From Sphingopyxis sp. (GTDB lineage: Bacteria; Pseudomonadota; Alphaproteobacteria; Sphingomonadales; Sphingomonadaceae): a stretch of 64,000 nucleotides of DNA. The first letter of the stretch is position 1, and each line of letters begins with the position of its first letter. A program made the position numbers and the translations under genes. The stretch is from assembly GCF_016463645.1 (NCBI RefSeq), contig NZ_JAEMQX010000010.1:1165-65164 (forward strand). Direction: 5' to 3'. The notes beneath the pieces were generated by a model that made no database searches, was not told where the DNA came from, and saw only the letters and a list, made by a program, of their open reading frames with translations. This document shows, in pieces, positions 9,524 through 45,071 of this stretch.

Positions 9524-9703
9524 GCGGCGAGCGCGCGATAGGGTGCCTGTTCGCCGCGGCGCGATCAGCCCCGCTCGAAGACCGAAATAATCGGGCAGTG
9601 CGTCCGGTGGATCGTAACCGCGGCGGGGTCAGCCGCGAACTGCACATTTGACCCGCCCGAGTTTGGAATTGACGGCAAGTTGGACAAGGATCATGTGTCG
9701 ACC

Positions 9704-10072: not shown

Positions 10073-10138
10073 AACGCGCGATGCGCGGTGACCGTCGTCG
10101 CCGCGCATCCTTCTGCTTTTCAACCGAGGATATTCGAC

Positions 10139-10402: not shown

Positions 10403-10466
10403 CGGCTTCCGTCCCCCGGCCGCCCGGCCGGGGGACATTCCCGCCTGTCTCGAAAGAGGGGGACAT

Positions 10467-11696: not shown

Positions 11697-12919
11697 CCGA
11701 TGCAACATCAGCGGCGCGTTGGCGCGCCGGAATCCTGACCGCGGTACTGATCGCGGGCGGCGGCGGCTATTGGCTCGGACAGAGCGGTCAGAGCGACGCA
11801 CCAACCGAGGCCGGAAGCGGCGGGCGGAAGATCCTCTATTATTATGACCCGATGTTCCCGAACCAGAAGTTCGACAAGCCCGGCAAGTCGCCCTTCATGG
11901 ACATGCAGCTCGAGCCCAAATATGCCGACGAGGGCAGCGGTGCGGCGCCAGGCGTGTCGGTCGACCCGGCGGCGCGGCAAAGCCTTGGCATAAGGGTGGT
12001 CGCCGCAGAAATGGGCAGCCTTGCCGCGACCTTCGACGTCAACGGCAGCATCGATTTCAACCAGCGCGACGTCGCGATCGTCCAGGCGCGCTCGGGCGGT
12101 TTCGTCGAGCGCGTCTATCGCCTCGCGCCCGGCGATGTGATTGGCGTCGGCACACCGATCGCCGACCTGCAATTGCCCGAATGGGGCAGCGCGCAGACCG
12201 AATATCTGAGCGTCAAAAAGCTCGGAAAACCCGACCTCACCGCGGCGGCGCGGCAGCGGCTGCGGTTGATGGGCATGCCCGAAGGCGTGATCGCCGAGGT
12301 CGACCGGACCGGGCGCACCGGCGGCAAGCTGACGGTGCGCGCGCCAATCGGCGGGGTCGTCCAGACACTCAATGCGCGCGCAGGCGTGACACTCGCCACA
12401 GGCCAGACGCTCACCGAAATCTCCGGGCTCGAAACGGTGTGGCTCAACGCCGCTCTTCCCGAAGCGCAGGCCGACTTGGTGAAGATCGGCCAGCGGGCGA
12501 GCGCGACCCTCACCGCTTTCCCCGGCGAAATCTTCACCGGCCGGGTCATTGCCATCCTGCCGACCGCATCGGCGGACAGCCGGACGCTGACAGTGCGCGT
12601 TGAGCTCGCCAATCGCGGCGGGCGCCTGCGCCCCGGCATGTTCGCGGTGGTGGCGCTCGGCGGCGACACGAAACCGGCGCTGCTGGTTCCGAGCGAAGCG
12701 GTGATCCGCACCGGTACGCGCAGTATCGTGATGCTCGAGAAGGGCGACGGACGCTACCATCCTGCCGAAGTGGTTGCCGGACGCGAAGGCGGTGGCAAGA
12801 CCGAGATATTGCAGGGGCTCGCCCCCGGCGAGAAGGTCGTCGCGTCGGGCCAGTTCCTGCTCGATTCCGAAGCAAGCCTGACCGGCCTCACCGTCCGCCC
12901 GCTGGAGGCGGCGCAATGA
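11693..12919 (+). CDS. cusB: RND periplasmic adaptor CusB
   Basis: YYYDPMFP...[14 protein letters not shown] heavy-metal-binding domain; LRPGMF; [17 protein letters not shown]. Confidence 0.9.
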
Positions 12920-15900: not shown

Positions 15901-16050
15901 GGCTCCGAAGTGATGAGCCGCATCGCCGCGCCGATGATCGGCGGCATGCTCACCGCGCCGCTGCTGTCGATGCTTATCATTCCCGCCGCCTATCTGCTGA
16001 TGCGAAGGCGTGCGGCTCATCCCGTCCAACCCGAAGGAGAAACGACATGA
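12916..16050 (+). CDS. cusA: CusA/SilA Cu/Ag RND permease
   Basis: [11 protein letters not shown]; [13 protein letters not shown]; [18 protein letters not shown]; [14 protein letters not shown]; MLATGIK. Confidence 0.95.
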
Positions 16051-27200: not shown

Positions 27201-27464
27201 GGTAACCGTCGAATTGAGCTCGTCGATCCCCTCGATCGTCCGCACCGCCGCCTCGACACGCTGCGTGACCTGCGTTTCGAGTTCGGTGGGCGCGGCGCCC
27301 GGCTGGGCGATGATGACGATGGCGCCCGGAAAATCGATGTCGGGATCGCTCTGGACCCCCATCATGAGGAAGGAGACGATGCCCGCCACCGTCAGACCGA
27401 AGAACATGACGAGCGGCGGGATCGGGTTCCGGATGGACCAGGCCGAGATATTCTTGAAGTTCAT
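24285..27464 (-). CDS. AcrB/AcrD/AcrF-type RND permease (not HME type), with no adjacent adaptor gene
   Basis: PDIDFP; GVLVDDAIVEIENI; GIVGKNSILLVDF; RAQPILMTT. Confidence 0.92.
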   Translation of the reverse strand: MNFKNISAWSIRNPIPPLVMFFGLTVAGIVSFLMMGVQSDPDIDFPGAIVIIAQPGAAPTELETQVTQRVEAAVRTIEGIDELNSTVTEGQSQTFVQFAIGTPIDRAVTDIRDKITQIRSNLPNGILEPQVIRLSTSGNTLAYWSASATDMTLEELSWYVDNVVAKRLIAVPGMGDAYRRGGVSREIRVILNPERMRAYGLTAAAVNTQLVQLNVNAAGGRMEVAGSEQAVRILGNASSANALGETLISVGTNRTVRLADIAEVKDLYAEQRSVSKQDGRQVLTFGFERAKGASDVTVYDAAVEELRKLEKENPKVKFTELFSDIEYTKGQYHSAINAMVEGAILAVVVVFLFLRDWRATLISALAIPLSAVPTFLFMDLMGFSLNMMTLLALSLVAGVLVDDAIVEIENIVRHMRMGKSAYQASIDAADEIGLAVLATTMTIVAVFLPVGLMPGVAGQYFKNFGLTVVAAVLMSLAVARMITPMLAAYFLSAQGPQKHGEGPLIDTYMRILRWSLDTSGAAAARARGGRWKWLGYIKDHRVWVVGIGVLALFATIFSFSLLPMTFQPSIDSDTSRVAIQLAPGATLEQTEAVADEVTDLMKRDPLVESALSRIDVGTATVYLKLRKDRELTSTEFEKDRAPRLAQVPDARINFQSQHGGGGGSSRDISITLGSDDPKKLEDVGNRLLAEMARVKEIRSPRVEGNLQRPEIVIRPRFALAAQLGVTTQALSQSIRVATLGEIDQNSAKFSLSDRQIPVRVALAETARERLDTLRNMPVPTRNGGTVPLSVVAEIGFGAGPTQINRTNQVRQLTIGADLAPGLVTGQAMDKVEALPALKALPAGVTRLVLGSAKWQAEMLRNFAIAVVSGIFLVLAVLILLYRKIIPPFVNMGSLLLAPLGGAVALLLTGYPLSLPVFIGVLMLLGIVGKNSILLVDFAIEEMASGVPRDEAIVDAGHKRAQPILMTTVAMVAGMIPTALSLTGDGAWRAPMAVTVIGGLILSTMLTLLIVPASFSLAAGFERRMVPRLRRWFTTGGAHADPSPAGVTDIGAGQSPAADR

Positions 27465-27508: not shown

Positions 27509-30049
27509 TCAGCCCATGCTGCGATCGCGATAGGCGAGCAGGCGAAGCGCGTTGGCGACGACGACGAGGGTCGAGCCTTCGTGCGCCGCGACCGCCGCAC
27601 CGATTCCGAGTCCGAAGATCGTCGCCGGCACGAGGACCACGACGACGCCGAGGCTGACCACCAGATTCTGGCGGATGATGCGGCGCGTCTGGCGGCTAAG
27701 TCCGATCGCGAACGGCAGATGAGCGAGGTCATCGGCCATCAGCGCGACGTCGGCGGTTTCGAGGGCAACATCGGACCCCGCGGCGCCCATCGCGATCCCG
27801 ACGGTGGCGCTCGCCATCGCCGGTGCGTCATTGACGCCGTCACCGACCATGGCGACCGGCTGCTGCGCCTTGAGGTCGCGAATGGCGTCGACCTTCTGAT
27901 CGGGCATCAGGTCGCCCCAGGCCTCGTCGATCCCGACCTCGGCGGCAATCGATTCCGCGACCTTCTGGTGATCGCCCGAAATCATGATCATCCGGCCGAT
28001 GCCGAGCTCGCGCAGTTTGGCGATCGCGGTGCGCGCCGCTTCGCGCGGCGTGTCCATCAGACCGATCGCGCCAAGATCGCGGTCGCCCATACGAACGACC
28101 ATCGTCGTGCGGCCCTGCTCGCGGAGGCCGGCGATCGCAGCCGCCACTTCGCCGCCGATCGGCGCGATGCCGTCGGCACCGAACATTTCGGCCTTGCCGA
28201 TCAGGACGGTTTCGCCCTCGACCTTTGCCGTGACGCCGCGACCCGTCAGGCTGTTAAGGTCGTCCGCCACCGGTACGCGCGTCGACGTCAGCATGGCCTC
28301 GCCATCGCGCGCGATGGCAGCGGCAAGCGGATGATCGCTCAGCCGCTCGACCGCCACCGCGATCCGCAGCAGTTCCTCCTTCGGCACGCCGCTGGCCGGC
28401 AGGACGTCGGTGATGCGCGGCTTTCCTTCGGTGAGCGTTCCCGTCTTGTCGAACGCCAGCGCGGTCAGCGAGCCGAGATTTTCGAGCGGGCCACCGCCTT
28501 TGACCAGCACGCCGCCGCGCGCCGCACGCGCAACGCCCGACAGGACGGCACTCGGCGTCGCGATCGCGAGCGCGCACGGGCTTGCCGCGACAAGGACCGC
28601 CATGGCGCGATAGAAGCTGTCGCGGAACGGCTCGTCGACAACGACCCAGGCGAAGAGCAGGACGAACACAAGCGCGAGCACGCTCGGCACGAAGATGCGC
28701 TCGAACTTGTCGGTGAAGCGCTGGGTCGGCGATTTCTGCGTTTCCGCCTCGCTCACCATCTTCACGACCTTAGCGAGCGTGGTATCGGCCGCAAGACGGG
28801 TTACCGCGATCTCGATCGCGCCATAGCCGTTGATGGTGCCCGCGAAGACGCGATATTTTGCGTCGAGTGCATCGGGCTTTGCCGCGGCCTGCGCACGATC
28901 GGCCACCGGTTCCTTGTCGACGGGGACGCTCTCGCCGGTCACCGGAGCCTGATCTATCGCCGTGCGGCCAACGACGACGAAGCCGTCGGCGGCAAGACGC
29001 TCGTTGGGCTTGACGATGACGGTGTCGCCAATCGCCAGCTGCTCGACCGGGACTTCGCGAGCCGTCCCGTCGGCATCCTTCACCGTCGCGGTCTGCGGCG
29101 CCAGCTCCGCAAGCGCCTCGATTGCGCGCTTGGCGCGGCCCATGGCATAATGTTCGAGCGCATGGCCGAGGCTGAAGAGGAAGAGGAGCAGCGCGCCTTC
29201 GGCCCACGCACCAAGCGCGGCAGCGCCGGCCGCGGCGACGAGCATCAGCGTGTCGATCTCGAAGCGCTTGAGCTTCAGATTCTCGATGGCCTCGCGGACA
29301 GTGAACCAGCCACCGAAGCCATAAGCGGCAATATAGAATGCGAGCGGCACCCACTCCGGCGCCGCGGCGAGCTTCTCGATCGCAAAGCCGATGCCGAGGA
29401 CGAGACCGCACAGCAGCGCGAAGATCAGCTCGGTCCGCTCGCCGAAGATGCCGCCATGATCATGGCCATGGTCGTGGCTATCCTCGCCCGTATGGCCATG
29501 TTTGTGATCTGGCCCATGCGCGTGATCCGGACCATGGTCATGGCCATCATCGCCATGTTGGTGGGCGGCTTGTGCCGGGGCAGCCGCGGCGACGGCAGTC
29601 GATTTCTGAGTGACGCCCATATCCGAGAGTGTCTTTCTGATCATTTCGATGGAGGTCTCCGAGCGCTGGAACTCGGCGCGCAGCGTACCGGCGGCGCCGA
29701 CTTCGGCCTCGATCACGCCCGGCATTTCGCGAAGCTTCAGTCCGATCGTCCGCGCGCGACGGGCGTGGCCGACGCCTTCGAGGTCATCCCAGAAGAGATG
29801 CTGATACTGGCCGGTGAGCTCGGCACCGGCGCTGCGCGCGAGCTGCCGCACGCGTTCGAGCGGGAGAATATCCGGACGGTAATGGATGCAGAGCTGTGGC
29901 GGCGAACCGTCGCTTGAGCGGACAACATGGACCTTGTCGACGCCTTCGCGTCCTTCGAGTTCGCTCGTCAGGCGCGCGACGCAGCGGTCGGCGGTATCGG
30001 CGACTTCGGGGAGGAGAAGCGGAATATCGAGCCGCAACTGGTCACTCAT
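27509..30049 (-). CDS. czcP: P1B-4 Zn/Cd/Co ATPase, CzcP-like, with His-rich N-terminal extension
   Basis: SPC in the TM site; HEGST in the last TM; DKTGTLT; SDHP; His-rich linker HQHGDDGHDHGPDHAHGPDHKHGH. Confidence 0.85.
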   Translation of the reverse strand: MSDQLRLDIPLLLPEVADTADRCVARLTSELEGREGVDKVHVVRSSDGSPPQLCIHYRPDILPLERVRQLARSAGAELTGQYQHLFWDDLEGVGHARRARTIGLKLREMPGVIEAEVGAAGTLRAEFQRSETSIEMIRKTLSDMGVTQKSTAVAAAAPAQAAHQHGDDGHDHGPDHAHGPDHKHGHTGEDSHDHGHDHGGIFGERTELIFALLCGLVLGIGFAIEKLAAAPEWVPLAFYIAAYGFGGWFTVREAIENLKLKRFEIDTLMLVAAAGAAALGAWAEGALLLFLFSLGHALEHYAMGRAKRAIEALAELAPQTATVKDADGTAREVPVEQLAIGDTVIVKPNERLAADGFVVVGRTAIDQAPVTGESVPVDKEPVADRAQAAAKPDALDAKYRVFAGTINGYGAIEIAVTRLAADTTLAKVVKMVSEAETQKSPTQRFTDKFERIFVPSVLALVFVLLFAWVVVDEPFRDSFYRAMAVLVAASPCALAIATPSAVLSGVARAARGGVLVKGGGPLENLGSLTALAFDKTGTLTEGKPRITDVLPASGVPKEELLRIAVAVERLSDHPLAAAIARDGEAMLTSTRVPVADDLNSLTGRGVTAKVEGETVLIGKAEMFGADGIAPIGGEVAAAIAGLREQGRTTMVVRMGDRDLGAIGLMDTPREAARTAIAKLRELGIGRMIMISGDHQKVAESIAAEVGIDEAWGDLMPDQKVDAIRDLKAQQPVAMVGDGVNDAPAMASATVGIAMGAAGSDVALETADVALMADDLAHLPFAIGLSRQTRRIIRQNLVVSLGVVVVLVPATIFGLGIGAAVAAHEGSTLVVVANALRLLAYRDRSMG

Positions 30050-31148: not shown

Positions 31149-34100
31149 CTATTCCGTGACCGGCTGGACCGCCGACTCCGCTTTTCGCTTGAGGAACTTC
31201 GGCTGCCAGTTCGCCCCGAGGACGACTTTTGCGATCGCGGGGAGAACGAGCAGCGTCAGGATGGTCGCCGCGATGAGACCGCCGATGACGGTCGTCGCGA
31301 GAGGCTTCTGCACCTCGGCACCCGTGCCGGTCGCGATCGCCATCGGCACGAAGCCGATCGCGGGCACGAAGCCGGTCATGATCACCGCACGCATCTTCTC
31401 GGTCATGCCCTCGCGGATTGCCTCCGTGAGCGGGACATCATTCTCGAGCCGTTCGCGGATCGCCGTCATGACGACGAGACCGTTGAGCACCGCGACGCCG
31501 GCAAGGCAGATGAAGCCCACCGCCGCCGACACCGAGAAGTTGATGCCCGTAAGCGCGAGAGTGAACACCCCGCCCGCGAGCCCAAGCGGCACGGCGAGGA
31601 ACACGGCGGTCGCGCGCCCGAACGTGCCGAGCGCCATGTAAAGCAGGATGAAGATGCCCGCGAAGCAGAGCGGCACCACGATCGAGAGCCGCTGCGATGC
31701 GGCCTGCAGACTTTCGAACTGCCCGCCCCATTCGAGGTAATAGCCCGCCGGAAGCTTCACATTGGCGATCTTCGCCTGCGCTTCGGCCACGAAGGATCCC
31801 GCATCGCGGCCTTCGAGGTTCACCTGCACGACGACGCGCCGCTTGCCATTTTCGCGGCTGATCTGGTTGAGCCCTTCGGTCAGCCGGATCTGCGCCACCT
31901 GGGCGAGCGGTATCTGTCCGCGATTGCCGCCCTCGGAGGGCAGCAACACGGGCAGCGCGCGGATGTCGTCGAGATTGACCCGGGTCGCGTCGGGGACGCG
32001 AACCGTGATGTCGAAGCGCCTGTCGCCCTCATAGAGCAGGCCGGATTCCCGCCCGCCGAGCGCCGCCGACACCGTATCGGCAACCTCCTGTACCGAGAGA
32101 CCGTAGCGCGCGATCGCATTGCGATCGAGCTTCACGTCGAGCGTCGGAGCGCCGCCCACTTGGTCGGCCTTGACGCTGCCCGCACCCGGTATGCCCTGGA
32201 GCACGCGCACCATCTCGTTCGCCGCGAGCGACATCTTGTCGAGGTCGTCCCCGTAGAGCTTGATGGCCACGTCGCCGCGAACGCCCGCGATCAGTTCGTT
32301 GAAACGAAGCTGGATCGGCTGGCTGACTTCATAAAGCTGGCCGAGCTGGCCGCCAGCGGCTTTCTCGATACGCTCGACGACATCGGCCTTCGAATCGACA
32401 CCTGCCGGCCACTGATCCTGGGGTTTCAGGATCACGAAACCGTCGGAGATGTTCGGCGGCATCGGGTCGGTCGCCACCTCGGCCGTACCCGTCTTCGAAA
32501 ACATCAGCTCGACTTCGGGCAGGCTCGAGATCGCCGTCTCGACGTTGCGCTGCATGACCAGAGACTGTTCGAGGCTCACCGAAGGCACGCGCGTCGAGGC
32601 AAGCGCCATATTCTTCTCGTCGAGCTGCGGAATGAATTCCGAGCCGAGCAGTCCGAACGCCGGGATCGCAAGGACGAAGAAGGCAAAGCCGCCGGCGATG
32701 AAAGCCCACGGCTTGGCGAGCGCCTTGTCGAGCAAGGGCAGGTAGCGCTCCTTCGACTTGCGGATCGCCCAGACTTCCTTCTCGGCAACCTTGCCGCGAA
32801 TCATCAGCGCGACAAGCGCCGGAACCAGGGTGATCGCGAGAATGAAGGCCGCAACGAGCGCGAGCATGATGGTGATGGCCATCGGCGAGAAGGTCTTCCC
32901 CTCGACGCCCGTAAACATCAGCAACGGCGCGAAGGCCAGTAGGATGATCGCCTGGCCGAAGACGGTCGGTTTGATCATCTCCTGGCTCGCGCGCATCGTC
33001 TCCTCGAGACGTTCGCGAAGGTTGAGCAATCTCCCTTCATGCTCCTGCCGGTGCGCCAGTCTGGCGAGGCAGTTTTCGATGATGATCACCGCCCCGTCGA
33101 CGATCAGACCGAAGTCGAGCGCGCCGAGGCTCATCAGGTTACCGGGGACCCGGAAGGCGTTCATGCCCATCGCCATCATCAGGAAGGAGAAGGGAATGAC
33201 GAGCACCGCGATGATCGCGGCGCGCCAGTTGCCGAGCAGGAAGAAGAGCGCGGCCGCTACGAGCAGCGCGCCTTCGGTGAGGTTCTTTTCAACCGTGCCG
33301 ACGGTTGCGTTCACGAGCTTGGCGCGGTCGAGTACCACCTTCACTTCGACGCCGGGCGGCAGGGTCTTCGACACCTGCGCGATCTTCGCCGAAACATCCT
33401 CCGCAACAGTGCGGCTGTTCTGCCCGATCAGCATGAGCACGGTCCCGATGACCGCCTCCTTGCCGTTCATGCTGCCCGCACCGGTTCTGAGGTCGCCGCC
33501 GATCTTCACATTGGCGAGCTGTCCAACCGTCACGGGCACGCCGCCGCGCGTCGCGACGACGGCGTTGCGGATTTCGTCGACCGAGCGGACGCGTGCATCG
33601 ACGCGCACGAGATAGGCCTCGCCTGCCCGGTTATAGTAGTTGGCACCGACCGCGAGGTTGGCGCGTTCAAGGGCTTCGCCCAGTTCGCTATAGGAAATGC
33701 CGTAGCTGGTGAGGCGGGTCGGATCGGGTTCGACCACGAAGGTCTTGGCATAGCCGCCGATCGAGTCGACGCCGGCGACGCCGCCGACCGACTTCAATTG
33801 CGGGCTGACGATCCAGTCCTGGACCGTGCGAAGATAGCCCGATTTGGCGATCTCGTCGGTGAGGATATCGCCCTCGGGGGTCAGATAGCTGCCGTCGGGT
33901 TGCCAACCTGGTTGGCCCGCGACCTTCTTGGCGCCCTTCCCGTCGGGATTTTTGTAGCCGACGGTGTACATGACGACCTCGCCGAGACCCGTCGTGACGG
34001 GACCGATCTGCGGCTGGGCCCCGTCGGGAAGATTCTCGCCCGCCTGGAGAAGCCGTTCGCCCACCTGCTGGCGCGCGAAATAGAGGTCGGTTTCATCGGT

Positions 34101-34391
34101 GAAGATTGCCGTCACCTGGCTGAAGCCGTTGCGCGAGATCGAGCGTGTCGTCTCGAGCCCCGGAATGCCGGCGAGCGAGATTTCGATCGGATAGGTTACG
34201 AGCTTCTCGATTTCGACCGGCGAGAGACGCGGATCGATCGTGTTGATTTGCACCTGCTTGTTGGTGATGTCGGGAACCGCGTCGATCGGCAGCTTGGTGA
34301 GCTGCCATACGCCGAGTCCCGCGATCACGAGGAAGAGAAAGAGTACCGCCCAGCGCGCGCGGACGGATAGCGCCATCAGTTTCGCGATCAC
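31149..34391 (-). CDS. czcA: CzcA/NccA-type heavy-metal RND permease (system 1)
   Basis: [14 protein letters not shown]; [23 protein letters not shown]; EFIPQLDE; KPLATTVIGG; periplasmic insertion YKNPDG...GDIL. Confidence 0.93.
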   Translation of the reverse strand: MIAKLMALSVRARWAVLFLFLVIAGLGVWQLTKLPIDAVPDITNKQVQINTIDPRLSPVEIEKLVTYPIEISLAGIPGLETTRSISRNGFSQVTAIFTDETDLYFARQQVGERLLQAGENLPDGAQPQIGPVTTGLGEVVMYTVGYKNPDGKGAKKVAGQPGWQPDGSYLTPEGDILTDEIAKSGYLRTVQDWIVSPQLKSVGGVAGVDSIGGYAKTFVVEPDPTRLTSYGISYSELGEALERANLAVGANYYNRAGEAYLVRVDARVRSVDEIRNAVVATRGGVPVTVGQLANVKIGGDLRTGAGSMNGKEAVIGTVLMLIGQNSRTVAEDVSAKIAQVSKTLPPGVEVKVVLDRAKLVNATVGTVEKNLTEGALLVAAALFFLLGNWRAAIIAVLVIPFSFLMMAMGMNAFRVPGNLMSLGALDFGLIVDGAVIIIENCLARLAHRQEHEGRLLNLRERLEETMRASQEMIKPTVFGQAIILLAFAPLLMFTGVEGKTFSPMAITIMLALVAAFILAITLVPALVALMIRGKVAEKEVWAIRKSKERYLPLLDKALAKPWAFIAGGFAFFVLAIPAFGLLGSEFIPQLDEKNMALASTRVPSVSLEQSLVMQRNVETAISSLPEVELMFSKTGTAEVATDPMPPNISDGFVILKPQDQWPAGVDSKADVVERIEKAAGGQLGQLYEVSQPIQLRFNELIAGVRGDVAIKLYGDDLDKMSLAANEMVRVLQGIPGAGSVKADQVGGAPTLDVKLDRNAIARYGLSVQEVADTVSAALGGRESGLLYEGDRRFDITVRVPDATRVNLDDIRALPVLLPSEGGNRGQIPLAQVAQIRLTEGLNQISRENGKRRVVVQVNLEGRDAGSFVAEAQAKIANVKLPAGYYLEWGGQFESLQAASQRLSIVVPLCFAGIFILLYMALGTFGRATAVFLAVPLGLAGGVFTLALTGINFSVSAAVGFICLAGVAVLNGLVVMTAIRERLENDVPLTEAIREGMTEKMRAVIMTGFVPAIGFVPMAIATGTGAEVQKPLATTVIGGLIAATILTLLVLPAIAKVVLGANWQPKFLKRKAESAVQPVTE

Positions 34392-34394
34392 GGT

Positions 34395-35564
34395 TTATTC
34401 CTCCTCGCCCGCGCCCTTGCCGAGTTCGGCCTTGAGCAGGAATGCGTTCTTGGTCGCGACGATCTGGCCCGGCTTCAGCCCGGCGAGGATTTCGACACGG
34501 CCCGCGCTGCGCTGGCCGACGGTCACCTGCTGCGCGCGGAAGCCGTCCTTCGTGCGGACGAACACCACGTCGCGGCCTTCGAGCGTCTGGAGGGCTTCGT
34601 CCGCGATCACGATCCGGGCCGGCCCACCGGTTTCGGCGCCGCGGCTCGGAAGCAGCCGCACCCGGACCGCCAAGCCCGGCTGGAGCGCCCCGGGCACATC
34701 GAGCACGGCGGTTGCCGAGCGCGTGTCGCCCGACAGGCCGGGCGTGACGGCGCGCACGCGGGCATCGATCGTCCGTCCGTCGGGAAGTTCGATGATCGCA
34801 CGGTCTCCGGGCGAGAGCCGCTGGGCATCGGCCGGACCGACGGCGGCCTCGATCTGCACCTTGCTGGGATCGGCAACGCGGAACAATTCGGTTTCGGGCT
34901 GAACGAAGGCGCCAAGGCTGGCGTTCTCGGCCGTGATCCGTCCCGAGATCGGGCTTGCCACGATGACGCTGCTGCCATCGCGCGTGACCTGCGCGGCGCT
35001 CGCTGCGGCACGCGCGCGCTGCGCTTCGGCCGCGGCGGCCGCGGCTTCGGCTTGCGCCTGCTCATAGTCGACGCGCGCCGACACCTTCTGGTCGAACAGG
35101 GTCTTCTCGCGGTGGAGATTTTTCTGCGCGAGCGTCGAGCGCGCATCGGCGGCAATCCGTTCGGCCGCAATCTGGGCGGCGTCGCGGCTTTGCACGATCG
35201 CGATCGTCTCACCGGCGCTGACCGGATCGCCGAGCCGCTTGAAGAGACGGGTGACCGCGCCGCCCGCGCGGGCGGTGACGATCGCCTCGCCGCTCGGCGC
35301 GGCGGTAACGGTCGCTTGCGAGATGATTTCCGAACCGAGTCCGCCGGCGCCGATCGTCTCGACGCCGATCTCGGCGGCCTTGATCGCTTCGGGCGTGATG
35401 GCGAGGCTGCTCGGAAGGGCTTCGCTCGCCGCTTCCTTTTCGCCTTCGGCAGCCGGCGCGGCGGCCGGGTCGGCGGTGCAGCGTGCAACGCCGAAGCCCG
35501 TGACGGCAGCGAGTATCATGGCGCCCGCGACAGTGCCGAGGAGACGCTTGTCCTTGGTGATCAT
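34395..35564 (-). CDS. czcB: CzcB-type RND periplasmic adaptor (system 1)
   Basis: N-terminal TM; SPISGRI; ELFRVAD; GRVEILAGLKPG..VAT.NAFLLKAEL. Confidence 0.9.
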   Translation of the reverse strand: MITKDKRLLGTVAGAMILAAVTGFGVARCTADPAAAPAAEGEKEAASEALPSSLAITPEAIKAAEIGVETIGAGGLGSEIISQATVTAAPSGEAIVTARAGGAVTRLFKRLGDPVSAGETIAIVQSRDAAQIAAERIAADARSTLAQKNLHREKTLFDQKVSARVDYEQAQAEAAAAAAEAQRARAAASAAQVTRDGSSVIVASPISGRITAENASLGAFVQPETELFRVADPSKVQIEAAVGPADAQRLSPGDRAIIELPDGRTIDARVRAVTPGLSGDTRSATAVLDVPGALQPGLAVRVRLLPSRGAETGGPARIVIADEALQTLEGRDVVFVRTKDGFRAQQVTVGQRSAGRVEILAGLKPGQIVATKNAFLLKAELGKGAGEEE

Positions 35565-35673
35565 ATTCTATCTCCGCTGTTGATGCGGTTCGCGCGCCGA
35601 CCGGCGGCGCACCCCTGTTGACTTGGAAGGACGATGGCGAAGGCGCCTCCGTCCACTGGAAGGCTCGGCGCGC

Positions 35674-36981
35674 TCATGGCTGATGATCCGCATCGCCGTC
35701 GGCGGCTGCCTGGCGCGATAGGATGGCGCGGGCTTCGGCCCGGGCCTGGCGCGCCGCGATCAGTTCGGCCTGCGTTGCCGCATAGGCCTGCTGCGCGTCG
35801 ATATATTCGACGAGCGAGGACTTGCCGGCGCGGTAGCTGAGTTCGGCGAGCCGGACACCTTCGCGCGCCTGCTCGATGCCGCTACCCTCAAGCGCCGCGA
35901 GGCGGGCCTCTGCGGCTTCGAGTTCGGCCTGCGCATTGGCGATCTCCGCCTGAGCATTGACCACTGCATTCTCGCGCCGCGCAATGGCGGCGGCGACATC
36001 GGATTTGGCTGCCGAGATGTTGCCGCGGTTGCGGTCGAAGACGGGGAGCGGCACGGAAACATTGGCGATCAATGCGCGATCGCCGGTGTCGCGAAGCTGA
36101 CGCACCCCGAAGCCGACCGACGGATCGAGCCGGCCATCGGCGCGCTGCCCCTGGAGCCGCGCTTCAGCAATCAGCTTCTCGGTTTCTGCCAAGCGAACGT
36201 CGAGCGTCGCGAGCGAGTCCACCGTCTCCGGTGCCACCCACATATCGCCTTCCATCAACTCGGCAGGCGGGACCGAGCTTCCAAGGAGCGCCGCGAGCGA
36301 ACGCCGGGCGGTCCTTTCTTCGGCCTCGGCCGTGCGTAGCTCGGCGGTGGCCTGAACGAGAGCCGCATTGGCGCGGAACGCACGGAGCGGCGGCTCGTTG
36401 CCGGTATCGACCATGGCCTGTGCCACGCGGACGAGTTCGCGGGCACGCGCTTCATTTTCGCGTGCGAGCGCGAGGCTATCGCGGGCCGCGAGAGCGGTCG
36501 CGAACTGGTTGCGGACATCGAGCGCAAGATCTGCGCGTGCAATCTCCAACTTGTACTTCGCGGCCAGAAACTCGGCGTCGGCGAGCGTCATGCGCGACCG
36601 GCGCCGGCCCCCGATATCGAGACGCTGATTGACCGACACGGTCGTTTCGAGACCGTTCAGGCCCGAGTAGGGGCCGGTGCCTGCGAAATTCTCGACATCG
36701 ACATTGAGCGTCGGATTGTAGCGATAGCCCGCCTGACGCTGGCGACCGCGAGCGGCCTCCACTTCGGCTTCGGCGGCAACCACGCGCGGCGAGCGCGCGT
36801 CGGCTTCCTCCATCGCCTGCGCGAGGGACAATCGAGCGGGAAGCGGGCCGGTACGCACGGCCTCGCCTGCGGAAGAAGGCGGTCCCACCAGCTCCGTCGC
36901 TGCCGACTGGGCAGCGGCGGGCGCGGAATTTGAGCCTGCAACGAGCGCCACGAGACTCGCGGCGACAACTATGGATTTCAT
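35674..36981 (-). CDS. czcC: CzcC-type TolC-family outer membrane factor (system 1)
   Basis: YRYNPTL; VSVPLPVFDRNRGNI; YRAGKSSLVEYIDAQ. Confidence 0.9.
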   Translation of the reverse strand: MKSIVVAASLVALVAGSNSAPAAAQSAATELVGPPSSAGEAVRTGPLPARLSLAQAMEEADARSPRVVAAEAEVEAARGRQRQAGYRYNPTLNVDVENFAGTGPYSGLNGLETTVSVNQRLDIGGRRRSRMTLADAEFLAAKYKLEIARADLALDVRNQFATALAARDSLALARENEARARELVRVAQAMVDTGNEPPLRAFRANAALVQATAELRTAEAEERTARRSLAALLGSSVPPAELMEGDMWVAPETVDSLATLDVRLAETEKLIAEARLQGQRADGRLDPSVGFGVRQLRDTGDRALIANVSVPLPVFDRNRGNISAAKSDVAAAIARRENAVVNAQAEIANAQAELEAAEARLAALEGSGIEQAREGVRLAELSYRAGKSSLVEYIDAQQAYAATQAELIAARQARAEARAILSRQAAADGDADHQP

Positions 36982-37046
36982 GAAAAGGAGACTCCTGACG
37001 TTTCCAGGGAGAAGCGCACGCGAAGGGCACGCGCAGACCTAGAGCG

Positions 37047-37409
37047 TCAGGCGATTGGAGGGCGGAACGTCCCGATATAGGCGACGGGCGGCAAGGCGGC
37101 CGTCAGGATGCGCGTATGCGCTTCAGGGGCAGGCGTTTCGGTCGCTGCCGACAGCGATTCCGCCGGGACGCCCGAATGGTGACCGTGGCAGCCATGAGCG
37201 GCGGCAGGCACCTGCTGCTTTTCGCCGGGAGAGGATTTTTTCTTGTCGACTTCGGCGCCTTCGATCGCCGGTGCGGGAACGCAGCCGGCTTCGATCACAG
37301 CAACGAAAAGGCTCGCCTCGGCCCGATCCTCGGTCGCATGTGCGAGCGACCCCGCAACCGTTCCGGATGCAAGGAGAAGGGTCAGGAGGAAGAGGATCAC
37401 CCGTCGCAT
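37047..37409 (-). CDS. Small secreted His/Cys leader protein ending FRPPIA (DUF2946/CzcI-like)
   Basis: Signal peptide; HGCHGHH; immediately upstream of czcC1. Confidence 0.7.
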   Translation of the reverse strand: MRRVILFLLTLLLASGTVAGSLAHATEDRAEASLFVAVIEAGCVPAPAIEGAEVDKKKSSPGEKQQVPAAAHGCHGHHSGVPAESLSAATETPAPEAHTRILTAALPPVAYIGTFRPPIA

Positions 37410-37764
37410 TGAAACCGGCCCCTAGCATCGAAACGGCGCGGTGAAAAGTAGAAGATTTTCAATCAACTTCGGCGGCACTCTTCGAACCCCCGAACCGGCT
37501 CCGTAATTTTATCTCATGGAGGTAAGAGAGCAGTGCACCTTGCCCCTCTATAGTTGCAGATGCGCCTCAAGAAACAGGATATCGGCCGAACAATCACGCG
37601 TTAAGCACAATAATTCTACAATTGTCTTTCACTCTTATTTCTATCGCTTCGCTATTGGCTCCCGCCTCCTTTGTTCGGGACGACATTCGAGCGATATGCT
37701 TCCCGTGAGACGAGGGGGTAAATCGGACGCAGAGCGGCACAGCGTCCTGCCGGAACATCAGGGC

Positions 37765-37795
37765 TTGACCCTGTATCTACTACAGGGTGCAAGAG
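37765..37795 (+). promoter_or_regulatory. MerR-type promoter/operator upstream of DUF3703 and czc system 2
   Basis: TTGACC-19 nt-CAAGAG with dyad ACCCTGTA-N5-TACAGGGT (37768-37788). Confidence 0.75.
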
Positions 37796-37825
37796 CCTGC
37801 CCTGCACAAAAAAGGGGGAAAGAGG

Positions 37826-38230
37826 ATGGTGCCGCCGACAGTAAATCCCGTGAGCATGGCCGTCATCGAGCCGCTGCTGCGCGAGCAATATCGCCTGTTT
37901 TGCGAATCACGCCGAATCGGAGATGAAGCCGCTGCGTGGCAGGCGCTGGAATGGGAACATATATTGAGCCAGCCCTATATGGGCGCGCATCTCGCCTCCC
38001 ACTGGCACATGTTTCGCTATGCGATCGAGCTCGGCGATGCCCGTGAAGCTACCGGTCAGGCAATGCGGTTCCTGCTCGTCCCGCTCGGTTCGCTGACCGG
38101 CCGCCTCCCCGCAGGGAATAATGGTCGCGCGCGGGTGAGCGCCTTCGAGCCGATGCCGATGCCGCAGGCCCTCGAAGCGCTGATCGAAACGGCCCGGTCG
38201 ACGGAGAGCCGCGCTGCGCGAACCGATTGA
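37826..38230 (+). CDS. DUF3703-like protein
   Basis: AWQALEWEHILSQPY...HLASHWHM...GRLPAGNNGRARVSAF.PMP pattern; GAGG RBS. Confidence 0.8.
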   Translation: MVPPTVNPVSMAVIEPLLREQYRLFCESRRIGDEAAAWQALEWEHILSQPYMGAHLASHWHMFRYAIELGDAREATGQAMRFLLVPLGSLTGRLPAGNNGRARVSAFEPMPMPQALEALIETARSTESRAARTD

Positions 38231-38279
38231 TCCGGTTTTGGACTTCCGGAACGGGTCATTCGCTGTTAGGGGCGCGACC

Positions 38280-38618
38280 ATGTCCGGCGCTACCCTTCGC
38301 CTGTTGCTTGTGTTCATCCTGCTGCTCAGCGGGCTCCACAATGCTGCGCCGGCGATGGCGGGCATGACGCACCATGCGACGGATTCGCATCTTTCGCACC
38401 ATGTCGAGCCGGGCCATGCGTCGGACAAGGACACGCAAAAAGGTCAGCAGGACGCCGACCTCCACGGCAGTCACCATAATTGCCCGGTCGCATCCGATCA
38501 GGCCCTTTCGGGTCATGACGATCTGTCCTGTTTTTCCGGCGGCCTGCACTTTGCGTTGCCCGCGACGCGCCTCGCTTCGCGCGCGCTCGCACCGCCCCTG
38601 AACCCTCCCCTCGCCTGA
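38280..38618 (+). CDS. Small secreted His-rich leader protein ending LNPPLA (DUF2946/CzcI-like)
   Basis: Signal peptide; MTHH, HLSHH, HGSHHNCP; immediately upstream of czcC2. Confidence 0.7.
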   Translation: MSGATLRLLLVFILLLSGLHNAAPAMAGMTHHATDSHLSHHVEPGHASDKDTQKGQQDADLHGSHHNCPVASDQALSGHDDLSCFSGGLHFALPATRLASRALAPPLNPPLA

Positions 38619-38683
38619 ACGCCGCCTGCCGCGCGGCCCCTTTTCGGCCTGCGCTCAGTCGAATCGTTCAGGAGTGATCATTC

Positions 38684-39915
38684 ATGCATATCCATATGCG
38701 CGCCGCCCTGTTGGCCGGGGCTGCGCTGCTGGCGGGGTCCGTTTGGGCCCAGCCGCTAACGCTCGACCAGGCGGTCGAGCGGGCCATCGCTGCATCGCCC
38801 GAGCTTAGAGCGGGCGAAGCGGGGGTCGACGCCGCGCGCGCCGACCAGCTGCAAGCCCGCGTCCGTCCCAATCCGACCGTGTCGGTCGACATGGACAATG
38901 GCGTCGGGACGGGCGGCTATGGCCTGTTCCGGCAATCGGAACTCACCGTCACCTATTCGCAGCCGCTCGAACGCGGGGGCAAGCGCGAGGCGCGAATGGC
39001 GCTTGCCGAGCGCGGTGTCGTTCTCGCCGAGGCGCAGTGGCGGCTCGTCCGGCTCGACATCGCCCAGGAAGTGCAGCGCGCCTATATCGACGTCCAGATC
39101 GCCGAGCAGATGGTCTGGATCGCAGAGGATCGCGTCAAACTTGAAAAGGAGATGCGGACCGAAGCGATCAGGCGCGTGCGCGGCTACAAGGATCCGCTCT
39201 TCGTCGAGACGCGCGCCGATGCCCGCATTCTCGAAGCCGAACTGGCCCTGAAGGAAGCCCAGGCGAAGCGGCAGTCCGCACGCGCATTGCTCACCTCCTT
39301 CTGGGGCGGCACGCCTGACAGCCTCGTTATCGCCGAGGGGATCGAGAAACCCGATCCGCGCGATCCGCCGCTCGCCGAAGCCGACGCGGCGGTCTTCGAC
39401 GCCGCCGTCGACCGGGCCCGCGCGCAGGTCGTCGTCGAGCAGAGCCGTGCGCACCAGGACTATACGGTCTCGGGCGGCACGCGCTTTCTTCGCGAGACCA
39501 ATGATGTCGCCGTTCTTGGCGGCATCTCGATCCCGCTCGGACGGTTCGACCGCAACCAGGGCAATATCGCCCGGGCGCAGGCCGAACGGCGGCAGCTCGA
39601 GTTCCAATCCGAAGCGAGCCGGCTCGAGCGGCTGCGGCGCCTCGCGTCGCTGCGCGCCGATGCCGACGCCGCACGCGTCCGGGCCGAGGGCATCATGAAC
39701 GACGTCTATCCCAAGGCGGTGAAGACGCTCGGCCAGGTGCGCGAAGGCTATGCCCGCGGCGGGTTCCTGTTCGCCGACGTACAGGATGCCGCCGACGTCA
39801 TCATCCAGATCCAGGGTCAGTGGGCCGAGGCCATGACACGCTACCGCGATTTGCTCGCGGAGATCGATCGCCTGACCGGCCGCTTCGATGCGGCTCCCCT
39901 TGCGGAGAATATTCC

Positions 39916-39919
<4 letters not shown>
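38684..39919 (+). CDS. czcC: CzcC-type TolC-family outer membrane factor (system 2)
   Basis: RPNPTVS; YSQPLERGGKREAR; SIPLGRFDRNQGNI. Confidence 0.9.
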
Positions 39920-44357
<4,438 letters not shown>

Positions 44358-44446: not shown

Positions 44447-44474
44447 AGGGATGGTGAGGATTGAGGAGCTTGCA

Positions 44475-45071
44475 ATGAATGAAAAAGCATCCGGGAGCGA
44501 ACGCGAAAAGCGAACGCTCCAGATCGTTCTCGTCCTGAACTCGGCTATCGCGATCGCCTTCCTCGTAACCGGCGGGCTCGGCGATTCGAGCGCGCTCATC
44601 GCCAATGGGCTCGACAATCTGTCCGACGCCGCGGTCTATGCCTTGAGCCTCGTTGCGCTCAGCCACGGCCTGAAATGGAAAACCCGTGCTGCCACGGCAT
44701 CGGGTGTCATGCTGCTGGTCTTCGCGGCCGGCGTCCTGTTCGATGTAGGACGGCGCTATTTCGAAGGCAGCGAACCGATCGGTCCGACAATGATGATCAT
44801 GTCGGCCGTCGCTGCGGTGGTGAACTATGCTTGTCTGAAGCTCTTGCAGCGCATTCAGGATCCGGACGTCAACCTCAGAGCCGCGACAACCTTCAGCTAC
44901 AACGACTTCATCTCGAACGGCGGCATCCTGATCGCGGGTGTCCTCGTCTGGTGGCTCGGTACGAACTGGCCGGACCTTCTGGTTGGATTTGCGACTGCGC
45001 TGATCGCGATCAAGGGCGGCATCGAAATCCTTCGCGACGCCCGCCAAGAGGCCAAACAGCAGAAAGATTAG
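44475..45071 (+). CDS. Short CDF-family cation transporter (copy 2)
   Basis: SSALIANGLDNLSDA; FSYNDFISN; WPDLLVG; no C-terminal domain. Confidence 0.85.
   Translation: MNEKASGSEREKRTLQIVLVLNSAIAIAFLVTGGLGDSSALIANGLDNLSDAAVYALSLVALSHGLKWKTRAATASGVMLLVFAAGVLFDVGRRYFEGSEPIGPTMMIMSAVAAVVNYACLKLLQRIQDPDVNLRAATTFSYNDFISNGGILIAGVLVWWLGTNWPDLLVGFATALIAIKGGIEILRDARQEAKQQKD

What the first reader, a model, noticed from the sequence alone, without database searches (positions are those of the whole stretch)
38280..38686. His-rich Pro-Pro leader ORF whose stop region can sequester the czcC2 Shine-Dalgarno
Seen: a 112-aa secreted His-rich ORF ends CCT CCC CTC GCC TGA (PPLA*). CCTGAAC spanning its stop (38614-38620) is the exact complement of GTTCAGG (38666-38672), which overlaps the czcC SD AGGAG (38670-38674). 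An inner GC hairpin (GCGCGGCC...GGCCTGCGC) lies between them, and a second CCTGAAC sits at 38597-38603. Established: DUF2946-like leaders CutF (Rhodobacter capsulatus) and CruR (Bordetella pertussis) control downstream copper genes through a C-terminal Pro-rich, ribosome-stalling mechanism. Inference: a related metal-sensing leader gates translation of a Zn/Co/Cd RND pump, a role I do not know to be shown for czc-type leaders.
Basis: partly seen in the sequence, partly recalled or inferred. Interest (0 to 1): 0.78.

Follow-up and report, generated by a model that had tools for sequence, protein, structure and literature searches.

The report
Proline-ended metal-sensing leader before czc pump
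A small secreted His-rich protein gene ends in Pro-Pro-x-x-stop, and its last codons base-pair with the ribosome-binding site of a zinc/cobalt/cadmium-type efflux pump operon. It is a well-supported but untested relative of the copper-sensing CutF leader.

Summary
The 112-aa ORF (38280-38618) ends PPLA-UGA. CCUGAACG (38614-38621) pairs with CGUUCAGG (38665-38672), which overlaps the czcC SD, and the helix encloses a GC hairpin.

On its own the helix is only mildly better than chance (z -2.4). Comparative evidence makes it convincing:
- A divergent paralogue 1.2 kb away (37047-37409, minus strand, ends RPPIA-UGA) has the same stop/SD helix.
- The bases after the stop covary with the bases before UCAGG across 28 junctions.
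- The spacer is as conserved as the flanking genes, or more.
- 52 of 80 czcC-like loci found through CzcC alone carry an upstream ORF ending PPxx-stop.
- The His/Cys motif sits 39-42 residues before the terminal PP in every relative checked.

This is the CutF design: exported nascent sensor, Pro stall and SD-shielding stem-loop, here placed before divalent-cation HME-RND pumps. Öztürk et al. 2023 already listed RND outer-membrane genes as the commonest neighbours of CutF-like ORFs. It is therefore a new member of a known, bioinformatically predicted kind, not a new principle. It is not a Pfam DUF2946, CzcI or CopL member by score. Metal sensing, stalling and gating remain inferred.

The parts
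38280..38618 (+). Leader ORF 2: 112 aa, 12 His, ends LAPPLNPPLA-UGA
   Evidence: Third-codon-position changes dominate among orthologues (for example 3/2/21 and 29/17/55), so it is translated. AlphaFold finds only the signal helix, with the rest unstructured (pLDDT 57.6, pTM 0.19).
38280..38360 (+). Predicted Sec signal peptide (residues 1-27: R7, LLLVFILLLSGL core, A-M-A | G)
   Evidence: Read from the sequence. AlphaFold helix at residues 4-17. No dedicated signal-peptide predictor was available.
38463..38483 (+). Conserved His/Cys motif HGSHHNC (residues 62-68), 41 residues before the terminal PP
   Evidence: Invariant H62, G63 and H65 in orthologues. Ruler measurements.
38604..38609 (+). 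Terminal Pro-Pro codons CCU CCC. CCU is a rare codon here, and CCUCC mimics the anti-SD sequence.
   Evidence: CCT is 3.4% of Pro codons in 12 window genes.
38597..38603 (+). Upstream second copy of CCUGAAC, inside the P-L-N codons. It is a possible back-up partner of GUUCAGG.
   Evidence: It is absent in L023, so it is probably dispensable. It re-pairs with the SD in the occupancy simulation when the ribosome sits on the stop.
38614..38621 (+). 5' arm of the SD-sequestering helix, CCUGAACG. It spans the last two bases of the Ala codon, the UGA stop and 3 further nt.
38623..38661 (+). Inner structure: short middle helices and the GC hairpin GCGCGGCC (38631-38638) / GGCCUGCGC (38646-38654)
   Evidence: Compensatory G-C to A-U change in L021 and a bulge shift in L017, L020 and L023.
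38665..38672 (+). 3' arm of the helix, CGUUCAGG. It overlaps the first three bases of the SD AGGAG (38670-38674).
38684..39919 (+). czcC2, the outer-membrane factor gene (OEP family). It starts 9 nt after the SD.
   Evidence: Pfam OEP 1.9e-32.
39913..44357 (+). czcB2 (39913-41178, overlaps the end of czcC2) and czcA2 (41190-44357, HME-RND with [15 protein letters not shown])
   Evidence: (TIGR00914: 1556 bits against a 701 cut-off).
37047..37409 (-). Paralogous leader ORF 1: 120 aa, signal peptide, HGCHGHH (37176-37196), ends GTFRPPIA-UGA
36992..37051 (-). Leader-1 junction RNA. CCUGACG (37051-37045, over the stop) pairs with CGUCAGG (37000-36994), which overlaps the SD AGGAG (36996-36992). 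It has an inner GC hairpin, and czcC1 starts at 36981.
31149..36981 (-). czcC1 (35674-36981), czcB1 (34395-35564) and czcA1 (31149-34391, DFG..DGA..IEN in the position of the VEN motif)

Best explanation
Each of the two divergent czcCBA-type operons is headed by a cis-acting sensor leader of the CutF type. The proposed steps are as follows.
1. The leader is translated and targeted to the Sec translocon by its signal peptide.
2. About 40 residues after the His/Cys motif (HGSHHNC or HGCHGHH) has been made, the ribosome reaches a Pro-Pro pair placed exactly two codons before a UGA stop.
3. In the free mRNA, the last bases of the ORF, the stop codon and the next 2-3 nt are paired with the bases just before and inside the czcC Shine-Dalgarno. 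A stable GC hairpin clamps this helix, so czcC initiation is blocked.
4. A ribosome sitting on the PP codons has this 5' arm in its mRNA entry channel, so the Shine-Dalgarno is free only while the ribosome dwells there.
5. Binding of a divalent metal (Zn, Co, Cd or Ni is the likely set) to the emerging His/Cys motif is proposed to lengthen the Pro-Pro pause, as copper does for CutF.
6. A second ribosome can then start czcC. czcB and czcA would follow by translational coupling, inferred from the czcC2/czcB2 overlap and short spacers.

Shown here: the ORFs, their coding-type conservation, the helix and its covariation, the PPxx-stop rule, the 39-42-residue ruler and the pump type.

Inferred: stalling, metal binding, the direction of the response and the role of export.
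For: - The fold matches the proposal. The paralogue 1.2 kb away has the same stop/SD helix with different bases (CCUGACG/CGUCAGG).
- The motif occurs only at these two junctions in 64 kb (2 hits against 0.09 expected).
- RNAalifold gives a conserved structure in both families, with 6 and 2 pairs showing double changes.
- A structure-blind alignment anchored on the stop codon and on UCAGGA, covering 28 distinct junctions, has 89% of cells paired. Its covariation score is 0.373, against 0.092 for shuffles (0 of 500 reach it) and at most 0.095 for slid partners. The first two bases after the stop take AU, CG, GU, UA, GC and UG pairs with the two bases before UCAGG.
- The spacer is 80-92% identical in nine of the ten comparisons where the leader coding sequence is 66-93% (the tenth: 71% vs 64%).
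- In an unbiased set of loci found through CzcC, 52 of 80 have an upstream frame of at least 60 codons ending PPxx-stop. In most, the MFE fold pairs the last codons with the RBS region. The duplex is better than own-locus windows at p < 0.05 in 10 of 29 loci.
- In 42 of 43 cluster representatives the tail after PP is exactly 2 residues.
- The distance from motif to PP is 40.3 +/- 1.2 residues (range 39-42). The segment between signal peptide and motif varies more (47 +/- 5.5).
- The rest of the protein is poorly conserved (22% mean column identity) and is predicted unstructured.
- Rare Pro codons (CCU, CCA) make up 13 of 27 first and 10 of 27 second terminal Pro codons, against about 7% in window genes.
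- With the footprint of a ribosome on the PP codons forced single-stranded, the unpaired probability of the czcC2 SD rises from 0.22 to 0.68.
- The mechanism has experimental precedent in CutF (PMC9973294; bioRxiv 10.1101/2025.02.05.636593). The same paper reports OEP genes as the commonest neighbours of CutF-like ORFs.
- In Caulobacter crescentus the Cd/Zn-induced czrCBA operon has no nearby regulator. It is transcribed from upstream of a hypothetical ORF that lies 57 bp before czrC (PMC3637150).
Against: - There are no experimental data for this family. The RNA runs that hold the region are available only as contigs and say nothing about transcripts or pausing.
- A single Pro-Pro is a weak staller. 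Even CutF's PPP did not stall on its own in a reporter (PMC9973294).
- The helix energy at this locus is not exceptional on its own (z -2.4 and -1.8; own-locus fractions 0.077 and 0.20).
- For leader 1 the occupancy simulation did not free the SD. A small alternative hairpin, CCUGG/UCAGG, can take over.
- For leader 2, a ribosome on the stop codon may let the upstream CCUGAAC copy re-pair with the SD.
- In Caulobacterales the helix ends 2-3 nt before the most likely SD (AGGA), so strict SD occlusion is not universal.
- Five of the eight outer pairs are fixed by the stop codon and the SD themselves, and so are uninformative.
- C. metallidurans CzcI is reported to act as a mature periplasmic protein that quenches the pump (PMC10127602).
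Confidence: 0.55

Rival explanations
1. Plain translational coupling to a functional periplasmic protein. In this reading the ORF encodes a mature CzcI-like metal-binding protein that modulates or feeds the pump. The stop/SD helix only ensures that czcC is translated when, and as often as, the upstream gene is. There is no metal-dependent pause.
For: - CzcI of C. metallidurans is described as a periplasmic protein that quenches CzcCBA for Zn and Co (PMC10127602).
- There are weak CzcI and CopL profile hits (E about 0.01).
- SD-occluding helices opened by an upstream terminating ribosome are a common coupling device (general knowledge).
- The helix includes the stop codon, so any terminating ribosome opens it.
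Against: - A folded protein would not be expected to keep only a signal peptide, a 7-residue motif, an exact 39-42-residue spacer and PPxx-stop while the rest drifts to about 22% identity.
- The mature part is predicted unstructured.
- The invariant two-residue tail after PP and the rare Pro codons have no obvious role in a mature protein.
- The two readings are not mutually exclusive.
Confidence: 0.2
2. CruR/TnaC-like transcriptional control. In this reading the ribosome paused at the leader's end blocks Rho loading or action in the spacer, and the metal changes the pause. The output would then be transcription of czcCBA rather than initiation at czcC.
For: - CruR (DUF2946) works this way through a C-terminal RAPP motif with a fixed 45-residue spacing to its metal motif (PMC9426467).
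- Leader 1 ends RPPIA.
- Related leaders in Methylotenera end PRAPPQL.
- The spacer is C-rich.
Against: - The spacer is only 65 nt and almost fully base-paired. This makes it a poor Rho loading site, and CruR has 162 nt (PMC9973294).
- The covarying pairs are precisely those that abut the SD.
- In CruR the metal switches expression off, which is the wrong sign for an efflux pump.
Confidence: 0.12
3. The hairpin is only an intercistronic mRNA-stability or processing element, and the complementarity of stop and SD is incidental to a GC-rich genome.
For: - Fold z-scores are modest, and so are the own-locus duplex ranks.
- GC hairpins between cistrons are common.
- czcI/czcICBA transcripts in C. 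metallidurans show processing (PMC10127602).
Against: - The outer pairs next to the stop and the SD covary.
- The same design is present in two paralogues and in distant orders.
- The spacer is conserved as strongly as coding sequence.
- The motif count is 2 against 0.09 expected.
Confidence: 0.05

Closest known systems
CutF / cutFOG of Rhodobacter capsulatus (PMC9973294; bioRxiv 10.1101/2025.02.05.636593)
   Same: Both are small ORFs under 150 aa with a Sec signal peptide and a metal-binding motif about 40-45 residues before a C-terminal proline motif. Both have a short spacer with a stem-loop that shields the SD of the next gene. Both are placed at the head of a metal-detoxification operon. 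The window leaders satisfy that paper's rule-based filters.
   Different: - The metal motif is His-rich with one Cys (HGSHHNC, HGCHGHH), not CxxxC.
- The proline motif is PP followed by exactly two residues and the stop, not PPP.
- The stop codon itself lies in the anti-SD arm.
- The output is the outer-membrane gene of a divalent-cation HME-RND pump, not a multicopper oxidase.
- There is no detectable Pfam DUF2946 score.
- Nothing has been tested experimentally.
CruR (Bp2923, DUF2946) of Bordetella pertussis (PMC9426467)
   Same: Both are upstream ORFs with a metal motif at a fixed distance from a C-terminal arrest-like motif close to the stop (RAPP, three residues before the end). The ruler is conserved across the family. 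Both head the operon.
   Different: CruR has CXXC and RAPP, a 45-residue spacing and a long spacer (162 nt per PMC9973294). It acts through Rho-dependent termination, copper turns expression off, and the signal peptide is dispensable. Here the spacing is 39-42 residues, the ending is PPxx-stop, the spacer is a structured 65 nt that overlaps the SD, and an efflux pump logically needs metal-ON control.
CzcI / CzcI2 of Cupriavidus metallidurans (PMC10127602; discussed in PMC9973294)
   Same: Both are small secreted His/Cys-containing ORFs directly upstream of czcC and co-transcribed with czcCBA. There is a weak profile similarity (E 0.016).
   Different: CzcI lacks the C-terminal proline motif (PMC9973294) and is described as a mature periplasmic quencher of the pump. 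The window leaders score 15.9 bits against a 100-bit cut-off. The true CzcI-like ORFs found upstream of beta- and gammaproteobacterial czcC genes end without PPxx-stop.
SecM, VemP and MifM secretion-monitoring arrest peptides (as reviewed in PMC9973294)
   Same: Each is an exported nascent chain whose arrest near the C terminus keeps a ribosome on the mRNA. This melts a stem-loop that hides the SD of the downstream gene.
   Different: Those peptides sense translocon activity through pulling force, not a metal, and have long specific arrest sequences. The window leaders conserve only PPxx-stop and a short preceding consensus.
CopL of Xanthomonas and Stenotrophomonas (as cited in PMC9973294)
   Same: Both are cis-acting small ORFs needed for metal-regulated expression of the downstream resistance gene. 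The weak NCBIfam CopL_fam similarity is E 0.011.
   Different: CopL is copper-specific and Cys/His-rich, and it lies upstream of a multicopper oxidase. The window leaders score below the family cut-off (16.3 against 40 bits).

Membership tests
CutF-like proteins (rule-based definition of PMC9973294) | Protein shorter than 150 aa | tested here: met
   112 aa and 120 aa.
CutF-like proteins (rule-based definition of PMC9973294) | [quoted passage not shown] | tested here: met
   The endings are ...APPLNPPLA* and ...FRPPIA*.
CutF-like proteins (rule-based definition of PMC9973294) | N-terminal signal peptide | tested here: met
   By inspection only. Each has a basic n-region, a hydrophobic core of at least 10 residues and an AxA-type site (AMA|G; AHA|T). 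AlphaFold helix at residues 4-17. No SignalP-type tool was available.
CutF-like proteins (rule-based definition of PMC9973294) | [quoted passage not shown] | tested here: met
   65 nt in both cases.
CutF-like proteins (rule-based definition of PMC9973294) | Reachable by iterative profile search from CutF seeds (lists B-D) | not tested
   No CutF seed sequences were held, and the paper's lists are not among its text supplements.
CutF mechanism | Stem-loop that shields the SD of the downstream gene | tested here: met
CutF mechanism | Metal-dependent ribosome stalling at the Pro motif; acts only in cis; needs export | not testable with these tools
   This needs toeprinting, pulse labelling, reporter fusions and complementation.
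Pfam DUF2946 (PF11162) / CruR | Profile score above the gathering threshold | tested here: not met
   Neither window leader gives a DUF2946 hit at E <= 0.1. Only 6 of the 25 sequences scanned (upstream leader ORFs plus three CzcI-like ORFs) give weak hits, the best at 3.4e-4.
Pfam DUF2946 (PF11162) / CruR | Conserved CXXC motif | tested here: not met
   The motifs are HGSHHNC and HGCHGHH, with no CXXC.
Pfam DUF2946 (PF11162) / CruR | [quoted passage not shown] | tested here: not met
   The endings are NPPLA* and RPPIA*, with PP two residues before the end. The spacing is 39-42 residues, not 45. An equally strict ruler does exist.
CzcI family (NCBIfam NF045614) | Profile score above the 100-bit cut-off | tested here: not met
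   15.9 bits, E 0.016.
CopL family (NCBIfam NF033807) | Profile score above the 40-bit cut-off | tested here: not met
   16.3 bits for leader 2 and 10.5 bits for leader 1.
HME-RND CzcCBA-type pump (the regulated genes) | CusA/CzcA family RND protein with the DFG..DGA..VEN signature of divalent-cation exporters, plus an MFP and an OMF | tested here: met
   TIGR00914 scores 1556.6 bits against a 701 cut-off; OEP and HlyD_D23 domains are present. czcA2 has [15 protein letters not shown] and czcA1 has [15 protein letters not shown], while the cus-like pump at 12916 has [15 protein letters not shown]. The meaning of the motif comes from the literature (PMC3637150 and my own knowledge of Nies's classification). 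Substrates were not tested.
Rfam RNA families | Match to any curated RNA family | tested here: not met
   No match at E <= 1 in 36900-38750.

The most novel reading that the evidence does not exclude
The His/Cys motif, the ~40-residue spacer and the PP-x-x-stop ending, with the ORF's last codons paired to the RBS of the outer-membrane gene, define a distinct clade-wide class of divalent-metal-sensing arrest leaders. This class could be the main, regulator-free induction switch of czc-type HME-RND pumps in Sphingomonadales, Caulobacterales and Acetobacteraceae. The invariant two-codon tail would set the stalled ribosome's entry channel exactly on the anti-SD arm. That would explain how operons such as Caulobacter czrCBA respond to Cd and Zn without any nearby regulator.
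Probability: 0.4. Interest if true: 0.7.

Novelty: new member of a known kind. Interest (0 to 1): 0.5.

Why it matters
Czc-type pumps are the main defence of many environmental bacteria against zinc, cobalt, cadmium and nickel. In many alphaproteobacteria no regulator is encoded nearby; PMC3637150 notes this for Caulobacter.

If these leaders work as proposed, sensing of periplasmic or nascent-chain metal by a translating ribosome would not be a copper curiosity limited to CutF and CruR. It would be a general way to switch on envelope efflux, with the ligand set of the leader tuned to the pump.

This window fits that idea. It pairs His-rich leaders with the two DFG-DGA-(V/I)EN pumps and a Cys-rich leader with the cus-like pump.

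The strict geometry found here (39-42 residues, PP, two codons, stop inside the helix) gives precise, cheap mutational tests. It also gives a simple signature for annotating such leaders, which are now labelled 'hypothetical protein'.

Tried and rejected
- RNA-seq evidence. 20 runs hold the region, but they are served only as Logan contigs of 3.6-7.4 kb with flat depth. They give no transcript ends, operon structure or pausing.
- Plasmid origin. There is no megablast match in PLSDB.
- Rfam. There is no family match.
- The supplements of PMC9973294 do not hold the CutF-like lists as text, so I could not check whether these proteins are in list D.
- Duplex energy per locus is a weak statistic in these GC-rich genomes. 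The window junctions rank only 0.077 and 0.20 against own-locus windows. I therefore rely on covariation, not energy. The Fisher combination (8.5e-10) uses related, non-independent loci and should not be read as a probability.
- A MAFFT alignment of both families together mis-registers the arms. I replaced it with an ungapped alignment anchored on the stop codon and on UCAGGA, joined by an artificial AAAA linker.
- The thermodynamic 'ribosome footprint' simulation supports SD opening for leader 2 but not for leader 1.
- I considered and rejected an intrinsic terminator in the spacer. There is no U tract, and the scan finds none on the + strand in the leader-2/czcC2 spacer; on the - strand its one site in the leader-1/czcC1 spacer (CCTGGAAACGTCAGG, 37008-36994) is weak and has only an interrupted T run.
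- The profile search of 1.84 billion representatives found only 67 relatives at E <= 0.001. The family is small or evolves too fast for sequence searches. The CzcC-anchored locus search was far more productive.
Full report
**1. Observation**

- The ORF 38280-38618 encodes 112 residues with 12 His. It has an N-terminal signal-like segment (R7, LLLVFILLLSGL, AMA|G) and ends CCT CCC CTC GCC TGA (PPLA*).
- CCTGAAC lies at 38614-38620 and again at 38597-38603.
- GTTCAGG is at 38666-38672, AGGAG at 38670-38674, and the czcC ATG at 38684.
- The minimum-free-energy fold of 38585-38700 is the proposed structure with one extra pair (CCUGAACG/CGUUCAGG). It encloses short helices and the hairpin GCGCGGCC/GGCCUGCGC, at -36.6 kcal/mol and z = -2.43.

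Taken alone this is modest. Against other 30-nt windows of the same locus, the stop/SD duplex ranks only 0.077.

**2. Context**

The window is a heavy-metal island. It holds four RND pumps, a P-type ATPase and a CDF.
- The ORF is followed by an OMF gene (38684-39919), an MFP gene (39913-41178, overlapping the OMF stop) and a CusA/CzcA-family RND gene (41190-44357).
- This RND gene carries [15 protein letters not shown], the signature of divalent-cation HME pumps. The cus-like pump at 12916 has [15 protein letters not shown] instead.
- A DUF3703 gene lies just upstream (37787-38230).

**3. A paralogue gives the first real support**

A second small ORF lies on the minus strand (37047-37409). It encodes 120 aa, has a signal peptide and the motif HGCHGHH, and ends GTFRPPIA*. 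It precedes a second czcCBA operon by the same 65 nt.

Its junction folds in the same way. CCUGACG spans the Ala codon and UGA, and it pairs with CGUCAGG, which overlaps the SD AGGAG around a GC hairpin.

The motif CCTGA-N35-65-TCAGGAG occurs only at these two junctions in the 64 kb. That is 2 hits against 0.09 expected, and 0 of 100 shuffles reach 2.

**4. Orthologues**

23 loci hold leader 2 and 31 hold leader 1, mostly from Sphingopyxis. Key findings:
- Both C termini are almost invariant: LAPPLNPPLA* and GTFRPPIA*.
- Differences between orthologues concentrate at third codon positions (for example 3/2/21 and 29/17/55). The ORFs are therefore translated and under purifying selection.
- RNAalifold recovers the same structure in each family, with compensatory changes. 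These include G-C to A-U in the outer helix of L049 and L051-53, G-U in L050, and G-C to A-U in the inner hairpin of L021. One sequence, L044, breaks one pair.
- The spacer is 80-92% identical in nine of the ten comparisons where the leader coding sequence is only 66-93% (the tenth: 71% vs 64%). That matches or exceeds the czcC coding sequence in seven of the ten comparisons.

**5. An unbiased wider sample**

I searched genomes with an alignment of the two CzcC paralogues, not with the leader or the RNA. This gave 80 loci from Sphingomonadales, Caulobacterales, Acetobacteraceae and other phyla.
- 52 of 80 have an upstream frame of at least 60 codons ending PPxx-stop. Examples are APPIEPPLA, APPLNPPKA, GPDRPPRG, EPPARPPRA, LLRPPRG, ALRPPIV and PRAPPQL.
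- Beta- and gammaproteobacterial loci instead carry true CzcI-like ORFs without this ending.
- Folding the junctions shows that in most of them the last codons of the leader pair with the RBS region of the OMF gene around a GC hairpin.
- The pairing uses two registers. In one, the stop codon pairs with UCA in front of GGAG (Sphingomonadales type). In the other, the Pro-Pro codons CCUCCC pair with a GGGA/GGAG tract.
- In Caulobacterales the helix ends 2-3 nt before the most probable SD, so occlusion there is less direct.

**6. Covariation test**

I made an ungapped alignment for 28 distinct junctions of the first register. It is anchored only on the stop codon (CC-UGA plus 6 nt) and on the SD (6 nt plus UCAGGA).
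- 89% of cells are paired for nine pairs.
- The covariation score is 0.373, against 0.092 +/- 0.020 in shuffles (0 of 500 reach it) and at most 0.095 when partners are slid by 1-3 columns.
- The first base after the stop pairs with the base before UCAGG as AU, CG, GU or UA in 27 of 28 sequences. The second does so in 26 of 28.
- The five pairs formed by CCUGA/UCAGG never vary apart from one broken pair (L044, CAUGA), and so say nothing either way.

**7. The peptide ruler**

I measured the spacing in 22 leaders from loci and in 43 representatives from a profile search of 1.84 billion clusters.
- The last His/Cys of the metal motif lies 39-42 residues before the terminal PP (mean 40.3, sd 1.2).
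- The segment between the signal peptide and the motif varies more (47 +/- 5.5).
- The tail after PP is exactly two residues in 42 of 43 representatives.
- Everything else drifts; mean column identity across the families is 22%.
- AlphaFold predicts only the signal helix, with pLDDT 57.6 and pTM 0.19.
- The terminal Pro codons are enriched in the rare CCU and CCA. They make up 13 of 27 and 10 of 27 codons, against about 7% in window genes. Both window leaders use CCU first. The stop is UGA in 25 of 27.

This pattern fits a nascent-chain device, not a folded protein. It parallels the ruler of 45 intervening residues reported for DUF2946/CruR and the 45 residues discussed for CutF (PMC9426467; PMC9973294).

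**8. Mechanism**

With Pro-Pro in the P and A sites, the stop codon lies 9-12 nt downstream. The anti-SD arm then sits in the ribosome's entry channel. This follows from the usual ~+11 to +15 nt reach of the ribosome, which is my own knowledge, not a tool result.
- Forcing that footprint single-stranded raises the unpaired probability of the czcC2 SD from 0.22 to 0.68.
- The same simulation is not convincing for leader 1, where a small CCUGG/UCAGG hairpin can replace the helix.
- For leader 2, a ribosome on the stop may allow the upstream CCUGAAC copy to re-pair with the SD.

I therefore propose the CutF logic. Metal bound to the emerging His/Cys motif prolongs the Pro-Pro pause of the exporting ribosome. 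The SD stays open longer, czcC is initiated, and czcB and czcA would follow by coupling.

**9. Comparison with known systems**

- PMC9973294 lists 5,334 CutF-like proteins and names OEP genes of RND systems (CusC/CzcC/SilC) as their most frequent downstream neighbours. It notes that not all are copper-specific and discusses CzcI. The class is therefore already predicted.
- I found no paper that tests a czc-type leader.
- By score the window leaders are not members of DUF2946, CzcI or CopL. They do meet the rule-based CutF-like definition.
- In Caulobacter crescentus, czrCBA (Cd/Zn) has no nearby regulator. It is transcribed from upstream of a hypothetical ORF 57 bp before czrC (PMC3637150). 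A Caulobacter locus in my set has a PPRV* leader with a 57-nt spacer. That the two are the same gene is an inference.

**10. Verdict**

It is a new member of a known, computationally predicted kind. The useful new details are:
- the PPxx-stop rule;
- the 39-42-residue ruler;
- the stop codon or the PP codons lying inside the anti-SD arm;
- covariation evidence for the helix;
- His-rich leaders paired with divalent-cation pumps.

Noticed in passing
window 9680-10072 (+), junction to 10136: A third leader-like ORF of 130 aa. It has an N-terminal hydrophobic segment and is Cys-rich (four Cys between residues 55 and 83). It ends GPEPDPPLLPG*. It lies upstream of an 88-aa secreted ORF (10136-10402) and the cus-like RND operon (OMF 10467, MFP with an HMBD domain, RND with [15 protein letters not shown]). 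Its stop region (CCCGGCUGAAA) also pairs with UUUCA..CCGAGG at the next SD around a GC hairpin, with z = -3.87. So a Cys-rich leader sits with the Cu-type pump and His-rich leaders sit with the Zn/Co/Cd-type pumps.
   Followed up: partly
window 10385-10472 (+): A strong GC hairpin (UCCCCCGGCCG...CGGCCGGGGGA) lies between the 88-aa ORF and the cus-like OMF gene. An SD-like GAGGGGGA follows. The fold gives -45.9 kcal/mol and z = -2.57. Its role is unknown.
   Followed up: no
window 37787-38230 (+): A DUF3703 gene (Pfam 3e-33) sits between the two divergent leaders, 49 nt upstream of leader 2. It may be co-transcribed with the leader2-czcCBA operon. Its function is unknown.
   Followed up: no
window 1-64000: The window is a dense metal-resistance island. 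It has four RND pumps (12916-16050, 24285-27464, 31149-34391 and 41190-44357), a P-type ATPase (27509-30049), a CDF (44451-45071) and an FTR1/cytochrome c fusion (18720-20666). I noticed no two-component or MerR-type regulator next to the czc operons, but I did not scan for one systematically.
   Followed up: partly
window 35500-41500; loci L014, L040 and L060: The region is 97-100% identical in many Sphingopyxis genomes, in a MAG labelled Brevundimonas, and in soil, wastewater and marine-sediment runs. This suggests a widely spread or mobile island, a common contaminant, or a binning error. There is no match in PLSDB plasmids.
   Followed up: partly
loci L087, L100, L106, L113, L116 and L119 (upstream of the czcC-like gene): In non-alphaproteobacterial phyla (Calditrichota, Verrucomicrobia, Balneolales, Ignavibacteriales, Hyphomicrobium, Methyloglobulus), the czcC-like gene is preceded by a different small ORF. 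It has an N-terminal hydrophobic segment and a hydrophobic C terminus (...VVLLI*...TVLRL*...STLLI*) instead of PPxx*. It may be another family of upstream small proteins.
   Followed up: no
window 36994-37008 (-): A small hairpin, CCUGG-AAACG-UCAGG, lies just before the czcC1 start. It can sequester the SD on its own once the outer helix is opened. It is conserved in most leader-1 loci. It could make the leader-1 switch a three-state one.
   Followed up: partly
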